From: a virus
Lineage: Duplodnaviria > Caudoviricetes
Length of the DNA stretch: 34,775 nt
Direction: 5' to 3' (one strand)
IMG/VR virus record: IMGVR_UViG_3300046782_000288
Coordinates: 1-34,775 of that record
Of this stretch, positions 27-31,124 are shown one piece after another. Position numbers and translations under genes: made by a program. The notes below the pieces were generated by a model. The model did no database searches. It had not been told where the DNA came from and worked only from the letters and a program-made list of their open reading frames with translations. Positions within the stretch are counted from its first letter, which is position 1. Each line of letters begins with the position of its first letter.

Positions 27-791
27 ATGAAGCGACTACTAGCTACGTCCGCCATCCTGGCGGCGCTTGCGGTGCCGGCTGCGGCCAGCACCGTCACACT
101 AGGTGGCCAGACCTGGGACACCACCAACTCCGGCAGCCTAAGCCTCGGCAACGTAGTGCCCGCCGGGAATCAGCCGCAGAACGCCCCGTGCGTCATCTGC
201 GGTGCCAACCAGCCGCAGCAGCCGGCCAATTTCGGCTACAACGACTACCAGAACGGCGGCAATCTGACGGCGGCCACCGCCTTCTCCGACCAAGGCAATG
301 GAGCCAGGAATACGCTGACCAACAACACCGTCGGTGACGGCTACCAAGTCGGCATCGGAAGTGCTTTTCTAGCCTATCTGCTTGGTGTCGGTGACACCAG
401 CCTCGGCTTTAGCATCGGCGTCGACGTCAACGACAGCAACACGGCGCAGACGCTCAACGCCTTCTACTTCCTCGACTACACCACCCACACCGTGTTGGCC
501 TCCTTCACTGGCGGTTTGCCCGGCAACGTGCCGTCGGTTCACAACGGCACTGGCATCCCGGACTACAGCATCACCGGGAGCCTGCTCAACCTCAACGATG
601 TCCACCTGGGCGACACGATTGGCTTCGTGGCGATCATGACTGGACTAAACGACGGGCCCGACTCGTTCTTCATCGAGGCGGCACCGGCGGTGGCGCAGAC
701 CCCGCTGCCGGCCTCGGCCTTCCTGTTCGGCATCGGCCTCGTCGGCCTCGCCGGGCTTGTGCGTAAGCGTCAGAGTAATCGTCTTGCGTAA
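27..791 (+). CDS. Secreted protein with a VPLPA-CTERM (PEP-CTERM-like) sorting signal
   Basis: Signal peptide MKRLLATSAILAALAVPAAA. The C-terminus is TPLPA + hydrophobic helix SAFLFGIGLVGLAGLV + basic RKRQ. SD GAGGA upstream. Confidence 0.85.
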   Translation: MKRLLATSAILAALAVPAAASTVTLGGQTWDTTNSGSLSLGNVVPAGNQPQNAPCVICGANQPQQPANFGYNDYQNGGNLTAATAFSDQGNGARNTLTNNTVGDGYQVGIGSAFLAYLLGVGDTSLGFSIGVDVNDSNTAQTLNAFYFLDYTTHTVLASFTGGLPGNVPSVHNGTGIPDYSITGSLLNLNDVHLGDTIGFVAIMTGLNDGPDSFFIEAAPAVAQTPLPASAFLFGIGLVGLAGLVRKRQSNRLA

Positions 792-2375: not shown

Positions 2376-2702
2376 ATGAGCGATGACGATTTTCGCACCA
2401 TCCTGCGGGCCATAGACGGGTTGCAGGCCGAGTTCGCGCCCGTCCGCGAGCAACTTAAGATAATCGAGATAAAAGTCAGCGGTATTCCGCTGATAGCTGA
2501 GTCAACCCACGACTTGCGTCGCGACCTGCGAATGGTGAAGGCCGCCATCAACGACATGGCGCGCGTCAACATCACGGGTGGAGAGGTCGCGGCCATGCAC
2601 GACGACATCGACCGCGTGCAAACCAGACAGGATCAGATCGAGACCCGCCTCGCCACCGTCGAACGGCTTCTCGCCGATACCGGAGCTTCCGATGAGCGAT
2701 AG
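2376..2702 (+). CDS. Coiled-coil hypothetical protein
   Basis: SD GAGG; heptad-like C-terminal half; overlaps the integrase start by 11 nt. Confidence 0.7.
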   Translation: MSDDDFRTILRAIDGLQAEFAPVREQLKIIEIKVSGIPLIAESTHDLRRDLRMVKAAINDMARVNITGGEVAAMHDDIDRVQTRQDQIETRLATVERLLADTGASDER

Positions 2703-3921
2703 ACCGAAAGTCGCAGACGCTCCCGGCCTCGTTTGGGCGCCCCGCAAATCCGGGTGGGTGGCCGAATGGCACGCCCGCACCGATCTGATCAAGCGGGGCT
2801 TCCTGCCCCAGCGCGCCCGCGTCTGGGTCGGGGAATGGCCCTCCGAGACGGACTGCGCCCTGATCTCCGACCAATGCACCCGCCTCCAGACCGAAATGCT
2901 GGTCTGGGGCCGCGGCGGCATCCCGGTGATCGCAGACGCCTTCGACGGCACGCTGGGCAGCCTGATCCGGCTCTACCAGACCGACAAGGATTCCTCGTAT
3001 CAGGAGCTTCGCTACGCGAGCCGGATGAACGACGACAGCCGGTGCAAGCTGATCGCCAGGGATTACGGCGACACGCTGCTTTCGGACATCGACGCCCGCA
3101 TGATCAAGGATTGGTGGCGGGCGTGGACCTCGGACGGCCGGACCCCGTCGGCCCATGGCAAGGTCGGGCAGCTCCGCACACTCTTCGCGTTCGGCTCCAC
3201 CTTGGTCGGAAAGCGAGGAGATCCCGAATGTCGGCGGTTGCGCGAGGATGCCGGGCTGCTGCGCTTCAAGATGGGCAAGCCCCGGAAGGAATACATCACG
3301 GCGACCCAGGCACTCGCCATCATCGCCAAGGCCCACGAGCTCGGCCGCCACTCGATCGCGCTCGCCCAGGCGTTCCAGTTCGAGTGCACCCTGCGGCAAA
3401 AGGATGTGATCGGGGAATGGGTCCCGATGGGCGAGCCGGAACTGTCGGATGTCCATGACGGTCAATGGAAGTGGCTTCGGGGTCTCCGGGGCGAAGAGAT
3501 CGACGCCAATTTGATCCTGCGCCACATGACCAGCAAACGGCAGAAGCCGGTCGAGGTCGATCTGCGCTTGGCCCCGATGGTCATGGCGGAACTGGATCTA
3601 GCCGGCAAGTTCCCCGAGAAGGGCCCGCTGATCATTTGCGAGGCGACCGGAGTGGCGTGGCAAGCCAAGAACTTCCGCGAGAAGTGGCGCAAGGTCGCGA
3701 CTGCGGCCGGAGTTCCAAACCACGTTTGGAACATGGACAGCCGGGCCGGCGCGATCACGGAAGGGACGGACGTTGCCGCCATGGATGACGTTCGCCGCAC
3801 CGCGACCCACAGCAACGTCAGCCAGACCCAAGCCTACTCGCGGGACGACACCAAGGCGATTGCCAGGGTCATGAAGGGCCGTGCCGCAAGCCGGAACAAG
3901 GCGGGAACGGATGCGCCGTAA
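2692..3921 (+). CDS. int: Tyrosine recombinase/integrase (409 aa)
   Basis: Catalytic pattern R (TLRQKD), K (TSKR), D-x-x-R-like MDSR in place of HxxR, H (ATH) and Y (TQAYSR). GGAG precedes ATG 2692. Confidence 0.85.
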   Translation: MSDRPKVADAPGLVWAPRKSGWVAEWHARTDLIKRGFLPQRARVWVGEWPSETDCALISDQCTRLQTEMLVWGRGGIPVIADAFDGTLGSLIRLYQTDKDSSYQELRYASRMNDDSRCKLIARDYGDTLLSDIDARMIKDWWRAWTSDGRTPSAHGKVGQLRTLFAFGSTLVGKRGDPECRRLREDAGLLRFKMGKPRKEYITATQALAIIAKAHELGRHSIALAQAFQFECTLRQKDVIGEWVPMGEPELSDVHDGQWKWLRGLRGEEIDANLILRHMTSKRQKPVEVDLRLAPMVMAELDLAGKFPEKGPLIICEATGVAWQAKNFREKWRKVATAAGVPNHVWNMDSRAGAITEGTDVAAMDDVRRTATHSNVSQTQAYSRDDTKAIARVMKGRAASRNKAGTDAP

Positions 3922-4098
3922 ATCACCGTAAACGCAACGCGAACATCGATGACTAGCATACACTACCAGGATCTAGCGATTTCAATTGGTTAAGGGGTGT
4001 TTCCGCTCAGCGCCCAAAAGCGCGGGGCCATTGGAATCATTGAATGTCAGTAGCGATTGAACAGGCAACGCGGCGCCTAGAGCCGCAGGAGGCGGAAG
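3922..4098. other. Candidate attP region
   Basis: Non-coding, AT-richer gap right after int, with an IHF-like site TTTCAATTGGTTA (~3980-3992), a weaker inverted one (~4033-4045) and short CTA(G/C)C repeats. No core could be identified. Confidence 0.3.
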
Positions 4099-4347
4099 AT
4101 GGCGGACGGAACGGTTCGATGCTTCATGGACGGCATCGATTGGCAGCACCAACTCGAGGCCGACGCGGACGGAACAGCTCTTTTCCCGAGCGAAGATTCC
4201 CTCCGCAAGGCCAAGACCTGCCTTGCTGGCGGGTGCGGTGTTGTCGAGGTCGAAGTTCGGCTGATCCGATGGGTTGAACCACAGAATTTGGAATATCACG
4301 ACCAGAAGGCAATAAGCCGCCACATGGCGCAAGGAGAGGATTGTTGA
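4099..4347 (+). CDS. Hypothetical phage protein (82 aa)
   Basis: Strong SD AGGAGG; globular-looking sequence (CFMDGIDWQHQL...CGVVEVEVRLIRWV). Confidence 0.75.
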   Translation: MADGTVRCFMDGIDWQHQLEADADGTALFPSEDSLRKAKTCLAGGCGVVEVEVRLIRWVEPQNLEYHDQKAISRHMAQGEDC

Positions 4348-4361
4348 GTTTCACGTGAAAC
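4348..4361. promoter_or_regulatory. parS: parS-type centromere palindrome (ParB binding site)
   Basis: GTTTCACGTGAAAC is the exact 14-bp core of the chromosomal parS consensus TGTTTCACGTGAAACA. It lies in the 25-bp gap between convergent genes. Confidence 0.75.
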
Positions 4362-4372
4362 GCCGCGACGAT

Positions 4373-4567
4373 TTATTTGCGCAAGGCTTTTGGATAGTCC
4401 TTGCCGAGCCATTGCCGTCCATCCTTGGGTCCGTATGACTCGGGAATGAATTCCTGCCCTGCACGCACAGCGGCACGCTGTCGCCGGTTTTCCACCTGCT
4501 TGAAAGCCTTTTCGCTGCGCTCGGTGGTGAAGCCGGCGATCGGGGTCTTTTTATGCGATCTGGTCAT
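4373..4567 (-). CDS. Small basic hypothetical protein (64 aa)
   Basis: MTRSHKKTPIAGFTTERSEKAFKQVENRRQRAAV...PKDGRQWLGKDYPKALRK looks protein-like. The longer frame to 4837 overlaps the upstream gene and the structured RNA. No clear SD. Confidence 0.65.
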   Translation of the reverse strand: MTRSHKKTPIAGFTTERSEKAFKQVENRRQRAAVRAGQEFIPESYGPKDGRQWLGKDYPKALRK

Positions 4568-4598
4568 GGGCCATTTATGCTCGGCTTTGGGTGTGTGC

Positions 4599-4750
4599 GC
4601 AATGAATGGTCCCGCAAGAAGCTTCTGAGTGCCACACTCCGCAGATCGGTCTGATGTCAACCAACGAGAGAGTTTGACCGTCCTTGGCTTTCCCGAGCTA
4701 TGTGATTCGGGACAGGAACCATTCATCGCCCGTCGGCACTCGGAACTCCT
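4599..4750 (-). ncRNA. Unidentified structured RNA with two long crossing helices
   Basis: Helix A pairs 4750-4734 with 4634-4617 (~16 bp, one mismatch, one bulge). Helix B pairs 4729-4715 with 4613-4599 (15 contiguous bp including two G-U). The order is A-B-A'-B', and the G-U pairs work only on the - strand. Confidence 0.55.
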
Positions 4751-4757
4751 GGGTAAA

Positions 4758-5075
4758 TCAGGCGCGCGGTTTAATCGCGGGCAATGACTTATCCTTGGTG
4801 GTGTTCGACATCTCGCCCGTTTTGCCAGACTTAGCATAGCTTTGGCGCTCGATGTTCTCGCGGAATTGGTCTGCAGTTTTCATGAATCGGCTCGCCTGCG
4901 TTTGGATCACCGGCCCCCCCGCGGCATAGCTGGCGGGCATCGGCCCGGTGCCCTTGCTCAGCCGAGGCGCTCGAGGCGGCCGCGGAAGCGCCGGTCCGGT
5001 GCCGGGGAGCTTGTTGCTAGCGATATTCGCGAACATTGCCTTGCGGGCTGCTGGGTCCATGGCCATGGTCATCAT
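4758..5075 (-). CDS. Small basic disordered protein with a YAAGGPV motif
   Basis: ATGA overlap with the upstream gene; shares YAAGGPV with the internal virion proteins. Confidence 0.7.
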   Translation of the reverse strand: MMTMAMDPAARKAMFANIASNKLPGTGPALPRPPRAPRLSKGTGPMPASYAAGGPVIQTQASRFMKTADQFRENIERQSYAKSGKTGEMSNTTKDKSLPAIKPRA

Positions 5076-5227
5076 CCTTTCTTCGGTTTGGGCGGAAGCT
5101 TGGCACCGGCACGCCGAGCTGTATCGAGTGCGATCGCGATTGCTTGCTTGCGCGGCTTGTTTGCGGCCAACTCGGTTTTGATGTTCTTGCCGATCGACGC
5201 TTTCGATCCGGACTTGTCAAGCGGCAC
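5072..5227 (-). CDS. Small basic phage protein (51 aa, MPLDKSGSKASIGKNIKTELAANKPRKQAIAIAL)
   Basis: SD AAGGAG before GTG 5227; resembles the recurring small phage protein pattern K..KQA.AIAL. Confidence 0.75.
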   Translation of the reverse strand: MPLDKSGSKASIGKNIKTELAANKPRKQAIAIALDTARRAGAKLPPKPKKG

Positions 5228-5261
5228 GACTGCTCTCCTTTTTCGCTTTCCAGCGATCACG

Positions 5262-5289
5262 TTGCTCGGGTTGGGCATACTGATACAAT
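5262..5289 (+). promoter_or_regulatory. Promoter for the HNH gene
   Basis: TTGCTC-16 nt-TACAAT with extended -10 TGaTACAAT, about 20 nt before ATG 5310. Confidence 0.45.
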
Positions 5290-5309
5290 CGACGGACAGG
5301 AGAGCACCG

Positions 5310-5816
5310 ATGTCCGACCCGCTTAAGCGCGCCCTGCATTATGATCAAATCACCGGTCAGTTCTATTGGAGAATTCGTGTCGGTAGAGGGAGCCGCAGCA
5401 GATATCCTGGCGATATTGCTGGAACGTCGAGAAGGGGTGGGTACATCCAGATTGGCTATGCCAATAAACTCTATCCAGCGCATCGGTTGGCGTGGTTTTT
5501 CATGACCGGTGCTTGGCCGCCGCGTTATCTGCAGATCGAGCACCGCGACAGTAATCCGTCGAATAATAGCTGGGCAAACCTGTTTGCGGTCCCCGATGCG
5601 AAGAACAAACAAAATTTGAATGACAGGCTGCGAAAAGACAATCGCAGCGGTTGCCGAGGTGTATCGCAACGGCCGGACGGGAGGTGGCATGCTCGTATTA
5701 CGGTTGATGGACGCACTATTCTTCTTGGCGATTATATTGACTTGGAGCAAGCGGTGATGGTTCGTAAAAACGCTGAACGCCGTTATTTGGACCATGACCG
5801 GCTTCCCCTAAGCTAG
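5310..5816 (+). CDS. Free-standing HNH homing endonuclease with a C-terminal AP2-like domain
   Basis: AHRLAWFFMTGAWP...IEHRDSNPSNNSWANL, then NRSGCRGVS...RWHARITVDGRTILLGDY; SD AGGAG; antisense to its neighbours. Confidence 0.88.
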   Translation: MSDPLKRALHYDQITGQFYWRIRVGRGSRSRYPGDIAGTSRRGGYIQIGYANKLYPAHRLAWFFMTGAWPPRYLQIEHRDSNPSNNSWANLFAVPDAKNKQNLNDRLRKDNRSGCRGVSQRPDGRWHARITVDGRTILLGDYIDLEQAVMVRKNAERRYLDHDRLPLS

Positions 5817-27340: not shown

Positions 27341-27789
27341 TGTCCTTGTTGTCCTCTGCCTGGCCCTGAACCACCGGCCACGCCAGGCAGCGCACGGCCG
27401 ACCAGTCCGGCGCTGAACAGCGCGAAATACGAAGTCGCCCGGCTGTCCTGGACGTCCTCTTGATCGCGTTCCAGCGCGTGCGCGCACAGCCCGTGCAGGA
27501 TCGCCAACCGGAACTGCGGCTCCATCTCGACATAGGTGTCATCCACCTCAGTGAACGCCTGCGTCTGCCCGCGCGTCCGCATGTTAAAGATGAACAGATC
27601 AGTGCGCAGCCGCCGCGCTTCCAGCAGAGTGACATTTAGAGACGTCAGCAAGGAAGCGTCGTCATACCGATAAGGCGGAACGACATCCTGCAACAGCGTG
27701 CGCGCGTCGGCAACGTAATCAGCGACAGTGGCAAGCGTCGGCTGATCGCGGTCGCTGAAATTGCCGAAATAGGACGGAGACGTGGTCAT
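27337..27789 (-). CDS. Head-tail adaptor-like protein (150 aa)
   Basis: ARTLLQD....RYDDASLLTSLN......RRLRTDLF, an adaptor-type helical pattern. Confidence 0.6.
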   Translation of the reverse strand: MTTSPSYFGNFSDRDQPTLATVADYVADARTLLQDVVPPYRYDDASLLTSLNVTLLEARRLRTDLFIFNMRTRGQTQAFTEVDDTYVEMEPQFRLAILHGLCAHALERDQEDVQDSRATSYFALFSAGLVGRALPGVAGGSGPGRGQQGQ

Positions 27790-28622
27790 CGGGAGTAGCT
27801 CCCTTTAGGGCGCCCAGCCTGCTTCACAGAAGATCGTTCGAACCCACAATACCGGCACCCTTGCCCCCGGTACATAAGCCTCTGAACAGTAGGTTTCCCA
27901 ATATAATCATGCTTAGAACAATAGATGGTAACCCGACCATCAACGGCACCAGGCTTACTTGGTGGTCCGATCTCCCTGCACTCCCAGCCTAATTCAGTTG
28001 TCTTAGCTTTAATCGCTTCCGGTGTGTTCTTACGACCGCGGCGATCCCATATTTGATTCGTAAGTTCACTTTGTCGCTCACCAGCACCCGGTCTGCTCCA
28101 GCGAGCAATGCGAGCAGCTTCGCCGTTATCGATACCTTTCTGTTTTAGCGAAACTCCAGCTCGCTTCTCGGGCGTCCAAGCAGCTATCATGGCAGCAACA
28201 CGAGCAGCCTTCTTCTCAGGGTTCGCCCAGTTCAACTCATTTTGCTCGATAAGATGCTCGCGAAAATCCGGGTTGTTCGCAATCATACGTTTTAAATGAC
28301 CGGAATGGGCCGCACGCTCTGCCTCCGTCATCCTCAAGCCCCTATTGGAATCCGCCCGCAAGCGCGAATTATACCGTGGCTTCAACTTGTCGATCCAAAA
28401 CTGCTCCCGTTCCTCAAGCTGCTCTGGAAGACATTCTTCAAGGAGGCCGAATTCAAAGCCTTCACCACGATATTTCACAAATGCCTTTGACAGCCGACGC
28501 GAAGGGTGCCGATTGCTACGCAAATCACTCAAATGCTGGATACAGCGCTTCTCGGCTCGTATCGAGGAACCAACATACATTTTGCCGCTCTGGCTTTTGA
28601 GGAAGTAAATTCCACACGTCAT
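27786..28622 (-). CDS. Free-standing GIY-YIG homing endonuclease with a C-terminal Zn-ribbon
   Basis: CGIYFL...MYVGSS...R..QHL...EREQFWID...YN catalytic domain; C-terminal IYCSKH...GQGCRYC; lower GC; SD GGAGG. Confidence 0.92.
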   Translation of the reverse strand: MTCGIYFLKSQSGKMYVGSSIRAEKRCIQHLSDLRSNRHPSRRLSKAFVKYRGEGFEFGLLEECLPEQLEEREQFWIDKLKPRYNSRLRADSNRGLRMTEAERAAHSGHLKRMIANNPDFREHLIEQNELNWANPEKKAARVAAMIAAWTPEKRAGVSLKQKGIDNGEAARIARWSRPGAGERQSELTNQIWDRRGRKNTPEAIKAKTTELGWECREIGPPSKPGAVDGRVTIYCSKHDYIGKPTVQRLMYRGQGCRYCGFERSSVKQAGRPKGSYSR

Positions 28623-28623
28623 A

Positions 28624-28723
28624 TTCTGGCCTCCCGTTTGTGTGCAACAGCACTGGAAGGCCAGAAGATGTTACCTAATGTTCAAGCTGTCAAGATTGCT
28701 TCGCTAACAGCTTGATTATACCA
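28624..28723 (-). promoter_or_regulatory. GIY-YIG control region: extended -10 promoter, 10-bp hairpin and 12-bp SD-sequestering hairpin
   Basis: TGgTATAAT at 28723-28715; inverted repeat 28715-28682; UUCUGGCCUUCC (28666-28655) pairs with GGGAGGCCAGAA (28635-28624), which contains the SD. Confidence 0.7.
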
Positions 28724-28725
28724 GA

Positions 28726-28796
28726 CTATCCGCCAGAGATGACCTGAGCTTGGCACAAGGCCGTGCCGTCGATCACTTGATAGCCGTACACCTGCA
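28726..28796 (-). CDS. Major capsid protein, exon 3
   Basis: Joining GGG T|TG CAG restores RGLQVYGYQVIDGTALCQAQVISGG-stop. Confidence 0.88.
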
Positions 28797-29106
28797 CGTT
28801 GTGTTTCACAACCAGTACACCCTGATTGATCGGTCGGCTCTTTATCCGACCACCTGCAACTTTCGCTGCAGACCAGACTATATCTTCCTGCTTGCACAGG
28901 CTCCGCGCTCGTGGGCCTTTCATCCGGTCTGGATTACTCGACCTAGTCGTTGGACCTTCTCCCTGTTCCCAGGGAGCTTGGCTGCTGATTGCCCAATCCG
29001 AAGTGTTTTCAAACCGTCGCATCTACCGTTACCAGTTATGCTGTGGTCACTTCGGCTCTCAGGGGTTCCCAGACAAATTCACGGAGTTTAACGAGAGCTA
29101 ATTTTA
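28797..29106 (-). ncRNA. Group I intron 2 of the capsid gene (310 nt, ORF-less, IA-like with a P7.1 insertion)
   Basis: P1 GAGGGU/GCUCUC with U-G at the splice site; P3 CUCCGUG/CGCGGAG; Q CAAUCAGCAGCC; P6a with GGAA loop; P7 GACUA...AAGAUAUAGUC; P9 CUGCAGC-GAAA-GUUGCAG; terminal G at 28797. Confidence 0.92.
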
Positions 29107-29641
29107 ACCCTCTGAGGATCTGGCCGAAGGTCAGCTCACTCCTCAACGTTTCCAATTTTGAAATCTGGCTTGCGAACGTAATCCCGTGCGCATGCCCAGC
29201 GAAGATCGGAAACTCGCCCGCTGCGAAGTTGGTTGAATCGCTCGTGTTGGTCGGCAGCAGGTTCGAGATATACAACGTGAATCGATCAATCATTCCGAGC
29301 CGGCCATTGCGCAGCATGGAGACCGGATCGCCCGACAGATAGGCCTGGCGCAGTTCCGACTGCTTGATCTGCCGCCCGGCCCACGCCGGCATCACCACCC
29401 AGCGGCCAATCTCCGGGATGTTCTGCTCGTCGAGGCACTCCCCCATGCGCAGAAGCAGATCGATCAGATTGGATTGACCGGCCGTCGCACCCTGCCCAAC
29501 CACCGTGATCGGCGTGCCCTTGATCCCGAGGTTGAGATTGGCGTACTTCCCGGCCGTCGCGCCGCGGTTGGTCGCCGCGCATTGCCCGACGATGCCGTCG
29601 AGCACTTCCGTGTCGACCGCGATTTTGAGCTGCTGAGCTGC
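29107..29641 (-). CDS. Major capsid protein, exon 2
   Basis: AAQQLKIAVDTEVLDG...LDEQNIPEIGRWVVMP...NGRLGMIDRFTLYISN...TFGQILRG, an HK97-fold capsid pattern, in frame with exon 1 after splicing. Confidence 0.9.
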
Positions 29642-30722
29642 CCAACGAACGTTTACGCGTTCGTTCCGACTATCGCTTCAACCACTGGAGCTATTATCTG
29701 CTTACGCCTGTATCCGCGCGTAGGCCGCTTGAGCCTATGATAGCGCTCAAGCTGCCAGCAATTCTTGCATAAGCCTTTAGCGTAAGGCTTACCGCCGCAC
29801 TGACAGAGAACGCCTTCCGCGTGCCTATAGCGAGATTGCGGATCAGGCACGTCGCGCACCAACACAAGTTCAGCAGACACATCCACAGTAGCCGCTAGGT
29901 CATTTAGTCTGTGCGGGTGGGTCTTCATGGCCTTGAGCGTATCCTCGATCACCTCGCCATCGCGAAAATGTCCCATCTTCGCACAGCCAAGAATGAAGTA
30001 CGCTTGTTCCCGTTTAACAGTCAGATGCTTCGCGATCGGATCAAAGAACTTGCGAACCATTGCTGCGTCCGCTCGAAGTTCCCATCGCCAGCAATTACCT
30101 GTCGCACCTCGCTGTCGAATGGCTCCGCCAAATGCCTTTTGCACCAGGACGAGCCCATCCTTTTCTAAACCATCGGAATCAATCGATAACTTGACGGTTG
30201 CTGTCCCACCATGCCGATTTGCATGAGCATAAACACAACCATCAGCATCGAAATATCCCGCCAGCCAGTTGCGAGACGGATAAACAGGAATGCTGTCCGT
30301 TCCAACCCGTTCGGTGAACCCAAGTTCACGCAGGATACGATTGGCACGAACACGCTTGGCCACAAGATACGGCTTCAGCCGGCACAGCAGATCAACCGCT
30401 TTCTGTCCGGTAAACCGCAAGCGAGAACCATGCGTAATGGTCCCGCGACGGCGCCCGGAACGGTTGTCCCGTGTTCCACCTGAAAACCGCTGAGTAAGGA
30501 GATCGATGACTCCGCTATTGGATTCCTTCTGATGGAAACCGAGTTCAAGCCGTTTTACAGGAACTGGGTTAGTGGTCAGCCCAACGAAGAGCGAACCATC
30601 TCCATCAAGAAAACCAGCAGCGTATTTGTCACTCAGGATCAACTTACTATCCCTTCCCTCTGGTTGCCTTTTACAAGGTTCCCAGTTTTTTAGACCTAGT
30701 TTACCGACGACACAACGTCTTT
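29642..30722 (-). ncRNA. Group I intron 1 of the capsid gene (1081 nt) carrying a LAGLIDADG ORF
   Basis: P1 CGACGAU/GUCGUCG with U-G; P3 CUAGGUC (30699-30693)/GACCUAG (29901-29895); P4 CUGG/CCAG; P5 CCUU-GUAA-AAGG; P7 GACUA (29909-29905)/UAGUC (29672-29668); P8 CGGCUACUG/CAGUGGUUG; P9 AACGAACG/CGUUCGUU; terminal G at 29642. Confidence 0.9.
29653..30642 (-). CDS. Intron-encoded double-motif LAGLIDADG homing endonuclease with a C-terminal Cys4 domain
   Basis: YAAGFLDGDG and WLAGYFDADG motifs; C-terminal CQCGGKPYAKGLCKNC; TTG start after a purine-rich stretch. Confidence 0.92.
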   Translation of the reverse strand: MILSDKYAAGFLDGDGSLFVGLTTNPVPVKRLELGFHQKESNSGVIDLLTQRFSGGTRDNRSGRRRGTITHGSRLRFTGQKAVDLLCRLKPYLVAKRVRANRILRELGFTERVGTDSIPVYPSRNWLAGYFDADGCVYAHANRHGGTATVKLSIDSDGLEKDGLVLVQKAFGGAIRQRGATGNCWRWELRADAAMVRKFFDPIAKHLTVKREQAYFILGCAKMGHFRDGEVIEDTLKAMKTHPHRLNDLAATVDVSAELVLVRDVPDPQSRYRHAEGVLCQCGGKPYAKGLCKNCWQLERYHRLKRPTRGYRRKQIIAPVVEAIVGTNA

Positions 30723-31124
30723 ATCGTCGCTCCATATAGACAGGACATTCAGATCGCTCTGCACCTCCATCACGTCGTCGAGGATCAGAGAGAAGTAAAA
30801 GCCGTTGCCGATGTAGAGTTCGACTGAGCCTCCAGTTGGTCGATCAAGACCGAGCAAACCGTCGGCCTGATACTTGCGGATCGTGATCGTAGGCTTTGTG
30901 CGAATCTTGACCCTGTCGCCTTGGTTGGCGATTTCGCCTTCGTAGTCTGTGTTTGATATGGCCGACAAAACGGTCGACGCATAAAATTTCTCAACGAGTT
31001 TAGCACTCCAGATCTCGGGAATAAATCCGGTCGATTGGAGTAGGTTTCCGGTAGACCCTACGGGGGTCAGGGGCGGGACTGAGCCTGACGTTGCGCCAGG
31101 AAAACCCGCACTCGGGATAGGCAT
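30723..31124 (-). CDS. Major capsid protein, exon 1 (spliced product 335 aa)
   Basis: FIPEIWSAKLVEKFYASTVLSAISNTDYEGEIANQGDRVKI...WSDD; follows the scaffold gene; 134 codons to the splice site. Confidence 0.92.

What the first reader, a model, noticed from the sequence alone, without database searches (positions are those of the whole stretch)
4373..4750. Unknown ~150-nt RNA with two crossing 15-16-bp helices ahead of a small basic ORF lacking an SD
Seen: helices A and B are in A-B-A'-B' order, joined by only 4-nt and 3-nt linkers, with G-U pairs fixing the - strand. The interior has more pairings: UCCCGA/UCGGGA, GCCAAgGA/UCgUUGGU, and loop CGGUC with downstream GACCG. I could not match it to tRNA, tmRNA, SRP, hammerhead, HDV-like ribozymes or common riboswitches. 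Two crossing helices, each longer than one turn, are hard to form together in one molecule. Inference: a two-state switch, an intermolecularly pairing multimeric RNA, or a new ribozyme-like fold. The Arg/Lys-rich 64-aa protein 31 nt downstream may be its partner or target. This is the best candidate here for an undescribed RNA-protein module.
Basis: partly seen in the sequence, partly recalled or inferred. Interest (0 to 1): 0.78.

Follow-up and report, generated by a model that had tools for sequence, protein, structure and literature searches.

The report
Knot-shaped phage RNA translation switch
A soil phage carries a conserved stretch, matching no known RNA family, with two long interleaved complementary pairs that likely act as an on/off switch for translating the next gene, and that would tie a true knot if both helices formed at once; the small protein beside it is exchangeable cargo, not a fixed partner.

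Summary
The two crossing helices are real and unusual: none like them, with short linkers, in 843 kb of other loci. No Rfam family matches. The RNA-protein module is not supported: 6 of 11 phage contigs with the element lack the 64-aa ORF, and 0 of 72 distant ORF loci carry the element. Relatives show a conserved 126-nt core closed by helix A and a long form that adds three things together: a Shine-Dalgarno site before a 13-codon leader inside A, its complement, and B', which holds a weaker SD and start codon. A-state and B-state differ by about 2-3 kcal/mol in 3 of 4 long forms. Best reading (0.36): a cis translational switch in the late transcript, built like leader-peptide/pseudoknot switches of I-complex plasmids. 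All homologues come from one phage population (97-98% alike), so there is no double compensatory change, and transcription is not shown. Boldest open reading: both helices form together and give a natural RNA knot (0.1); a toy 3D model allows it and was always knotted.

The parts
4758..5075 (-). 105-aa basic ORF, last gene before the element; its stop lies 8 nt before the SD in helix A
   Evidence: no Pfam or PHROG family
4621..4746 (-). 126-nt core present in all 5 sequence types, closed by inner helix A
   Evidence: 122-124 of 126 identical to the window; alignment
4734..4750 (-). Helix A, 5' strand; holds SD AGGAG (4750-4746) and GUG (4739)
4698..4739 (-). 13-codon leader ORF behind the SD, running across B and the first hairpin (translation inferred)
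   Evidence: SD -6.9 kcal/mol in 4 of 4 long types, no such SD in the short type
4715..4729 (-). Segment B
   Evidence: 12 inner bases invariant in 5 of 5 types
4691..4712 (-). Interior hairpin, 5 invariant pairs
4660..4688 (-). Interior hairpin of 8 positions; G.G in 4 types, U-G in the short type
4647..4680 (-). Possible 5-pair pseudoknot, 4680-4676 with 4651-4647; one G-C to G-U change
4617..4634 (-). Helix A, 3' strand; its outer part (long form only) is complementary to the SD
4599..4615 (-). Segment B' (long form only); holds a weak SD and the start position (AUG in 2 types, AUU or UUG in the 2 ORF-bearing types)
4564..4602 (-). 12-codon ORF from UUG whose UGA overlaps the start codon of the 64-aa ORF; alternatively AUU at 4603 is in frame with that ORF
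   Evidence: same overlap in L015
4564..4581 (-). B-like segment over the start of the 64-aa ORF, a second possible partner for B'
   Evidence: duplex -13.0 kcal/mol in the window, -22.1 in L015, against -24.7 for B:B'
4373..4567 (-). 64-aa Arg/Lys-rich ORF of a widespread unnamed family; exchangeable cargo
   Evidence: no Pfam, PHROG or NCBIfam family
4348..4361 (.). Perfect 14-bp palindrome that fits the bacterial parS consensus (consensus recalled); one copy per record
   Evidence: present downstream in L001, L002 and L018 types, partial in L021
2692..3921 (+). Convergent integrase-like gene; the element travels with this module
   Evidence: relatives sit beside tRNA genes in 14 of 20 genome loci; 49% to a Bradyrhizobium phage protein; no Pfam hit, so the integrase label is inferred

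Best explanation
The element is likely a structured RNA at the far end of the virion-gene transcript of a likely temperate soil podovirus, and in its long form it likely works as a two-state translational switch for whatever cargo gene follows. Shown in the sequence: helix A covers an SD and GUG for a 13-codon leader; B' covers the only SD-like site ahead of the 64-aa ORF; in ORF-bearing forms B' has a second possible partner over the ORF's start codon. Predicted by folding: A-state and B-state are close in energy, and A is complete before B' is transcribed. Inferred: ribosomes ending the upstream 105-aa gene open the outer part of A and re-start on the leader; the state of A and the ribosome's passage over B then decide whether B' pairs with B, with the ORF start, or with nothing, and so whether the cargo is translated, probably through the UGA/AUG overlap. 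Whether B:B' is the on or the off state is not settled. The interior hairpins would be the sensing or scaffolding part; no ligand is known.
For: SD, its complement and B' are present together in 8 of 11 contigs (one of them, L006, is cut before the SD) and absent together in the other 3. Three different downstream contexts part from each other right at the end of the 12-base core of B' (19 of 19 identical up to there, 8 of 31 after). Forced A against forced B: -61.4/-64.3, -74.1/-73.6, -58.8/-60.3 kcal/mol in 3 long types. The SD context is as strong as the top 28 of 1075 ATG/GTG contexts on the strand, approximately (-6.9 against a cut of -7). A ribosome footprint on the leader lowers the cost of opening the B' start region from 11.1 to about 6 kcal/mol in the window. 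In L015, taking B' away lowers the cost of opening the ORF start from 17.3 to 9.4. All 3 variable sites in inner helix A keep or improve pairing. The core diverges less than integrase four-fold sites: 2 of 126 against 20 of 215, 4 of 126 against 20 of 214, 3 of 126 against 13 of 207 (p 0.005, 0.046, 0.12).
Against: The core is kept in 3 contigs with no B', no SD and no downstream gene, so the core does not need a cargo. Two long types (3 contigs) keep B' but their AUG opens only a 10- or 46-codon frame with no sign of being a gene. In L015 the A-state is favoured by 9 kcal/mol and the ribosome footprint does not open B'; in L016 and L021 the gain is at most about 2 kcal/mol; in the window, removing B' does not change access to the ORF start (9.4 both ways). 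A database protein from a further short form reads through the leader's stop (P0083). No pair changes on both sides. The phages recombine freely, so low divergence may reflect a recent sweep. The folding program cannot score A and B together. Transcription is not shown.
Confidence: 0.36

Rival explanations
1. A stand-alone structured RNA in which A and B form together as a side-by-side two-helix bundle; the free tail threads the ring closed by A and makes an open knot, or an unthreaded pseudoknot, that protects the RNA's ends. The ORF is a bystander.
For: A and B share no base, have similar lengths and short linkers at both ends. A rigid-body model found clash-free placements, and 99 of 99 closed chains were knotted for 17+15 pairs (21 more loops could not be built), against 40 of 118 for a 6+6 control. 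Conservation ends at B' in three contexts. The X-Y-X'-Y' layout with helices of 10-12 pairs is the design of synthetic knots (PMC4829277, parts 1-2 of 4 read; PMC13725558, passages).
Against: 3 of 11 contigs lack B'. Threading is blocked while the 3' end is on the polymerase or continues into a long transcript (inference). The model uses phosphate traces and a 30-step free loop only; the same pairing can exist unthreaded when loops are long (PMC13725558). RNA-library contigs run past both ends and are no deeper over the element than over the upstream gene.
Confidence: 0.2
2. A trans-acting antisense RNA of the P1 C4 / P4 CI kind: the A-closed core is cut out and its single-stranded B binds B' on new transcripts, its own or a superinfecting relative's, to shut off the downstream gene.
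For: Closing stem, two hairpins, an exposed segment and a target just downstream over a start site is the layout of CI with seqC (PMC4825925, passages). B is invariant even where B' is missing. Two copies pair through B and B' in a cofold that is 11 kcal/mol better than two monomers.
Against: No match to any Rfam family. No second target: in 5 relatives the only exact matches to the B' pattern are B and B' themselves, and matches with 2 mismatches (13) are about as frequent as the control (10). The locus is at the end of the virion genes, not in an anti-repressor operon. No promoter-like site.
Confidence: 0.16
3. A recently acquired or decaying stretch: helix A and the hairpins are real or left over from a former regulatory region, B:B' is a local inverted duplication without function, and conservation comes from a sweep of the integrase module.
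For: Found only in one phage population; not in 7 more distant relatives of the upstream gene, 67 integrase relatives, 401 + 401 genomes by DNA or 87 by model. No compensatory change. Folding z-score is ordinary in the window.
Against: Lower divergence than neighbouring silent sites in 2 of 3 comparisons; 5 of the 8 variable sites lie in predicted pairs and all keep or improve them, with a sixth breaking a terminal sixth pair of the first hairpin; rarity of the layout.
Confidence: 0.15
4. A catalytic RNA of a new class, or a multimer-forming structural RNA such as a packaging RNA, possibly bound by the basic protein.
For: Multi-branch core with a possible pseudoknot; B:B' allows head-to-tail pairing; the phage already carries a group I intron.
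Against: No ribozyme family match; only 8 bases lie where an HDV-like fold needs about 13 (requirement recalled); B' is dispensable; the ORF does not co-occur.
Confidence: 0.07
5. A DNA-level or replication element: an RNA primer origin or segregation cassette next to the parS-like site, or a retro-regulator of the integrase read on the + strand.
For: The parS-like palindrome lies next to the element in the short form and within 260 bases in the others. Mycobacterial prophages use a non-coding RNA beside parABS as origin (PMC7157519, passages). Inner helix A pairs on either strand.
Against: These phages have an integrase-like gene, and no parA or parB was recognised by eye among the ORFs of G404 (not scanned against families). 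G-U pairs favour the - strand.
Confidence: 0.06

Closest known systems
I-complex plasmid repY/repZ (ColIb-P9) and repBA (pMU720) leader-peptide pseudoknot switches
   Same: Long crossing helices, a short leader ORF, translational coupling to the next gene, pairing that decides access to a start site (PMC8053102, passages). ColIb-P9 is listed as a knot candidate with helices of 18 and 10 pairs (PMC4829277).
   Different: No replication protein downstream, no counter-transcribed antisense RNA identified, no Rfam match, about 80 structured bases between B and A', and a form that lacks the second helix.
Phage P1/P7 C4 RNA and satellite phage P4 CI RNA; Gifsy-1 IsrK
   Same: Phage RNA with a closing stem and a segment complementary to a site just downstream, ahead of a short coupled ORF (PMC4825925, PMC8201110, passages).
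   Different: No sequence or model match; one target rather than an upstream and a downstream one; no icd, kil or anti-repressor gene; late-operon position.
Synthetic X-Y-X'-Y' DNA and RNA knots
   Same: Same order of four complementary segments, each at least one helical turn (PMC4829277; PMC13725558).
   Different: Natural; two linkers are only 3-4 bases and the third is a folded domain; knotting untested.
64-aa ORF family (unnamed)
   Same: 48 representatives at E up to 0.001 and 72 loci in metagenomes.
   Different: Elsewhere it has no such element upstream, and 31 of 69 have their own SD at -5 kcal/mol or better.

Membership tests
Any Rfam 15 family | Score at the family's gathering threshold, or any weak match | tested here: not met
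   (0 matches at E up to 10 in 3900-5300)
tRNA / tmRNA | ARAGORN-detectable gene | tested here: not met
C4 / CI antisense RNA | Complementary target downstream, over a start site | tested here: met
   B:B'
C4 / CI antisense RNA | Second target upstream of the RNA | tested here: not met
C4 / CI antisense RNA | Controls an icd/kil/anti-repressor operon | tested here: not met
   downstream ORF has no family match and is absent in 6 of 11 contigs
C4 / CI antisense RNA | Processed to a discrete RNA that acts in trans | not testable with these tools
   only assembled contigs were laid
Leader-peptide pseudoknot switch (repYZ / repBA type) | Short leader ORF with its own SD, overlapping the structure | tested here: met
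   translation itself not shown
Leader-peptide pseudoknot switch (repYZ / repBA type) | Long-range helix changes access to the downstream start | tested here: inconclusive
   predicted in L015, not in the window; opposite-sense effect
Leader-peptide pseudoknot switch (repYZ / repBA type) | Rep gene downstream and a counter-transcribed antisense RNA | tested here: not met
   no Rep gene; no promoter-like site on either strand (sigma-70 pattern only)
Self-cleaving ribozymes (hammerhead, HDV-like, twister and others) | Conserved catalytic core in the family model | tested here: not met
   that these families are in Rfam is recalled
Knotted RNA | Two interleaved helices of at least 10 pairs | tested here: met
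   criterion from PMC4829277
Knotted RNA | Both helices paired at once, with a threaded end | not testable with these tools
   sterically allowed in a toy model only
RNA-protein module | RNA and ORF co-occur across homologues | tested here: not met
   5 of 11 element contigs have the ORF; 0 of 72 distant ORF loci have the element

The most novel reading that the evidence does not exclude
The long form folds both helices at once into a two-helix bundle and threads its short 3' tail through the ring closed by A: a natural, deeply tied RNA knot encoded by a phage, with an unknotted short form in sibling phages as a ready-made control.
Probability: 0.1. Interest if true: 0.92.

Novelty: new variant of a known kind. 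Interest (0 to 1): 0.52.

Why it matters
If the switch reading holds, this is an uncatalogued phage regulatory RNA that ties a cargo gene to late-gene translation, in a long and a short natural form. If both helices form together it bears on an open question: natural RNA knots are reported as extremely rare, with a single case from structures (PMC13725558), and this 155-base element meets the published sequence criterion with both helices at 12-17 pairs, while 2 of the 12 candidates tabulated in PMC4829277 have both helices at 10 pairs or more. It is small enough to test in vitro at once. The limit is that all evidence for structure comes from one population of near-identical sequences.

Tried and rejected
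Homologue hunts that found only the same population or nothing: four exact patterns or protein queries in viral contigs near the element (of 54 hits to the helix A pattern, 9 were the element by nhmmer); blastn in phage and plasmid collections; 401 genomes of the order of G001, 10 of one genus, 401 of a genus reached through a Bradyrhizobium prophage flank, 87 by covariance model; 7 distant relatives of the upstream gene; 67 viral and 20 genomic integrase relatives (14 of the 20 genomic loci were given to the model). An energy-based background scan missed its own positive control and is not used; it did show that GC-rich DNA gives many crossing pairs at -17 kcal/mol or better (45 in 843 kb). 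The leader peptide matches 11 of 11 residues of a cytochrome c-550 PedF in G277 (15 of 22 reading past the stop, 34.7 bits); for about 400 genomes searched that score is near one expected chance hit (my estimate), 7 of 8 variant sites change the residue in that frame (read), and no protein family or other homologue was found, so a cytochrome origin and a coding role were rejected. Expression: 5 RNA-labelled runs hold 8-10% of the words; in 4 laid runs, contigs at depth 2-3 cross the element in two runs and its 5' part in two that look like one data set; DNA in the library is not excluded and a silent-stretch control is missing, so this is not counted as evidence. An attC-like cassette signature around ORF homologues was found in 0 of 69 by a simple pattern. 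The Atlas search gave only unnamed clusters. Resemblances to Y RNA, the SRP Alu domain and twister were noticed by eye from recall and dropped. Literature searches showed no paper on this element; they cover open-access text only, and supplements were not read. Four look-ups in earlier scan findings were empty.

Full report
Setting. The window is a linear virus record, about half complete. Its - strand carries a podovirus-type virion module whose 754-aa protein is closest to Rhizobium and Bcep22-like phages. A convergent gene at 2692-3921 is 49% identical to a Bradyrhizobium phage protein, and its relatives in genomes mostly sit beside tRNA genes (14 of 20 loci), so I take it for an integrase and the phage for temperate; the host is probably an alphaproteobacterium (inferred). 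The runs that hold the DNA are soil and rhizosphere metagenomes. The finding lies between the last virion-strand gene (105 aa, stop at 4758) and the integrase end.

Observation. It holds in every detail checked. B is 15 contiguous pairs (2 of 1000 shuffles). A has 16 pairs with one mismatch that is a normal pair in the other four sequence types. Linkers are 4 and 3 bases. Loose crossing helices are common in GC-rich DNA (91 in 843 kb), but with at least 12 pairs each, at most 2 G-U and short linkers only the element itself was found. No Rfam family matches even at E up to 10.

The ORF is cargo. Eleven contigs carry the element, in five sequence types: five with the 64-aa ORF (window, L002, L003, L004, L006), three long forms without it (L001, L005, L021) and three short forms without it (L018-L020). 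The ORF belongs to a widespread unnamed family, and none of 72 metagenome loci that encode a relative, two of them at 77% identity, has the element (one of those two has only 48 bases upstream).

Anatomy from the relatives. A 126-base core closed by inner helix A is 97-98% conserved, while virion genes of the same phages are mostly 68-79% alike and integrase silent sites differ by 6-9%. The long form adds outer helix A and B'. Outer A is an SD (AGGAG, -6.9 kcal/mol) paired to its complement, six bases before a GUG that opens 13 codons across B; B' holds a weaker SD (-4.0) and a start position, AUG in two types and AUU or UUG in the ORF-bearing types, where the UUG frame ends in a UGA overlapping the ORF's start codon. 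The short form lacks the SD, its complement and B' together. Sequences downstream of B' are unrelated among three types, starting at the end of its 12-base core. In ORF-bearing types a B-like segment over the ORF start can also pair with B', strongly in L015 and weakly in the window.

Mechanism. Nested folding puts the A-state and the B-state within about 3 kcal/mol in three of four long types and 9 apart in L015; along the growing chain A appears first and B replaces it once B' is made. A ribosome on the leader makes B' easier to open in the window, slightly so in two other types and not in L015. I commit to a cis translational switch (0.36), similar in logic to the leader-peptide pseudoknot switches of I-complex plasmids (PMC8053102, passages), but not a member of that family. 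Its weak points are plain: the core persists where there is nothing to regulate, two long types have no credible gene after B', the sign of the switch is unclear, and a further short form lacks the leader's stop.

Rivals. A and B share no base, so only topology keeps them apart. A phosphate-trace model placed them side by side with the natural linkers, and every closed chain was knotted, mostly with determinant 3, a trefoil (76 of 99), whereas two thirds of a short-helix control were unknotted. This is the layout of designed knots (PMC4829277, parts 1-2 of 4; PMC13725558, passages). I give 0.2 to a stand-alone RNA with both helices formed and 0.1 to a true knot within that. A C4/CI-like antisense RNA (PMC4825925 and PMC8201110, passages) gets 0.16: the layout fits, but no second target was found in five relatives. 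A neutral or decaying stretch gets 0.15, a ribozyme or multimer 0.07, and a replication or DNA-level role beside the parS-like site 0.06 (PMC7157519, passages).

What is missing. No divergent homologue was found in viral contigs, phage and plasmid records, or about 900 genome searches, so no pair shows a change on both sides (0 of 50); three pairs show a one-sided change that keeps pairing and two mismatches are pairs in other types. RNA-library contigs cross the element at low depth, in a long and a short form, but without a control for DNA they do not show transcription. PMC5737381 (passages) was consulted only for the c4-2 motif; PMC11218946 was seen as an abstract start in listings.

Verdict. 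A real, uncatalogued structured element of one phage lineage; most likely a translational switch of a known kind in a new form; not an RNA-protein module; and a cheap, well-controlled candidate for a natural RNA knot. Interest 0.52.

Noticed in passing
window 27786-31124: The major capsid gene is in pieces (30696-31124, 29036-29605 and probably more), split by an endonuclease-like ORF at 29653-30642, an Rfam group I intron at 28854-29171 and a GIY-YIG-like homing endonuclease ORF at 27786-28622.
   Followed up: no
window 4348-4361: Single perfect palindrome fitting the recalled parS consensus, kept beside the element across the population but found in 0 of 67 integrase-related viral loci; an integrating phage might recruit host ParB.
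   Followed up: partly
window 4842-5816 (+): Free-standing HNH endonuclease frame on the strand opposite the virion genes (Pfam HNH_3); the true start is probably well inside this frame.
   Followed up: no
window 4099-4347 (+): 82-aa ORF convergent with the 64-aa ORF, present in the L001 type and absent in L018 and L021 types; no Pfam or NCBIfam family.
   Followed up: partly
window 3921-4060: Conserved GC-rich stretch between AT-rich arms, probably the attachment site; it does not look like a tRNA end and was not found in 401 genomes of the Bradyrhizobium-like genus.
   Followed up: partly
window 27-791 (+): 254-aa protein with a signal-like N-terminus and a C-terminal PEP-CTERM-like motif below the Pfam cut-off, unusual cargo for a phage.
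   Followed up: no
G404 (L209-L211): The 55-kb record seems to hold two different virion modules and two integrase-like genes; it may be chimeric or a mosaic.
   Followed up: no
L170:1495-1545: Cytochrome c-550 PedF segment matching the leader peptide at 11 of 11 residues; judged chance.
   Followed up: yes
L052-L055: Four copies of a 64-aa ORF relative with the same match on one 420-kb metagenome contig, suggesting a repeated mobile unit.
   Followed up: no
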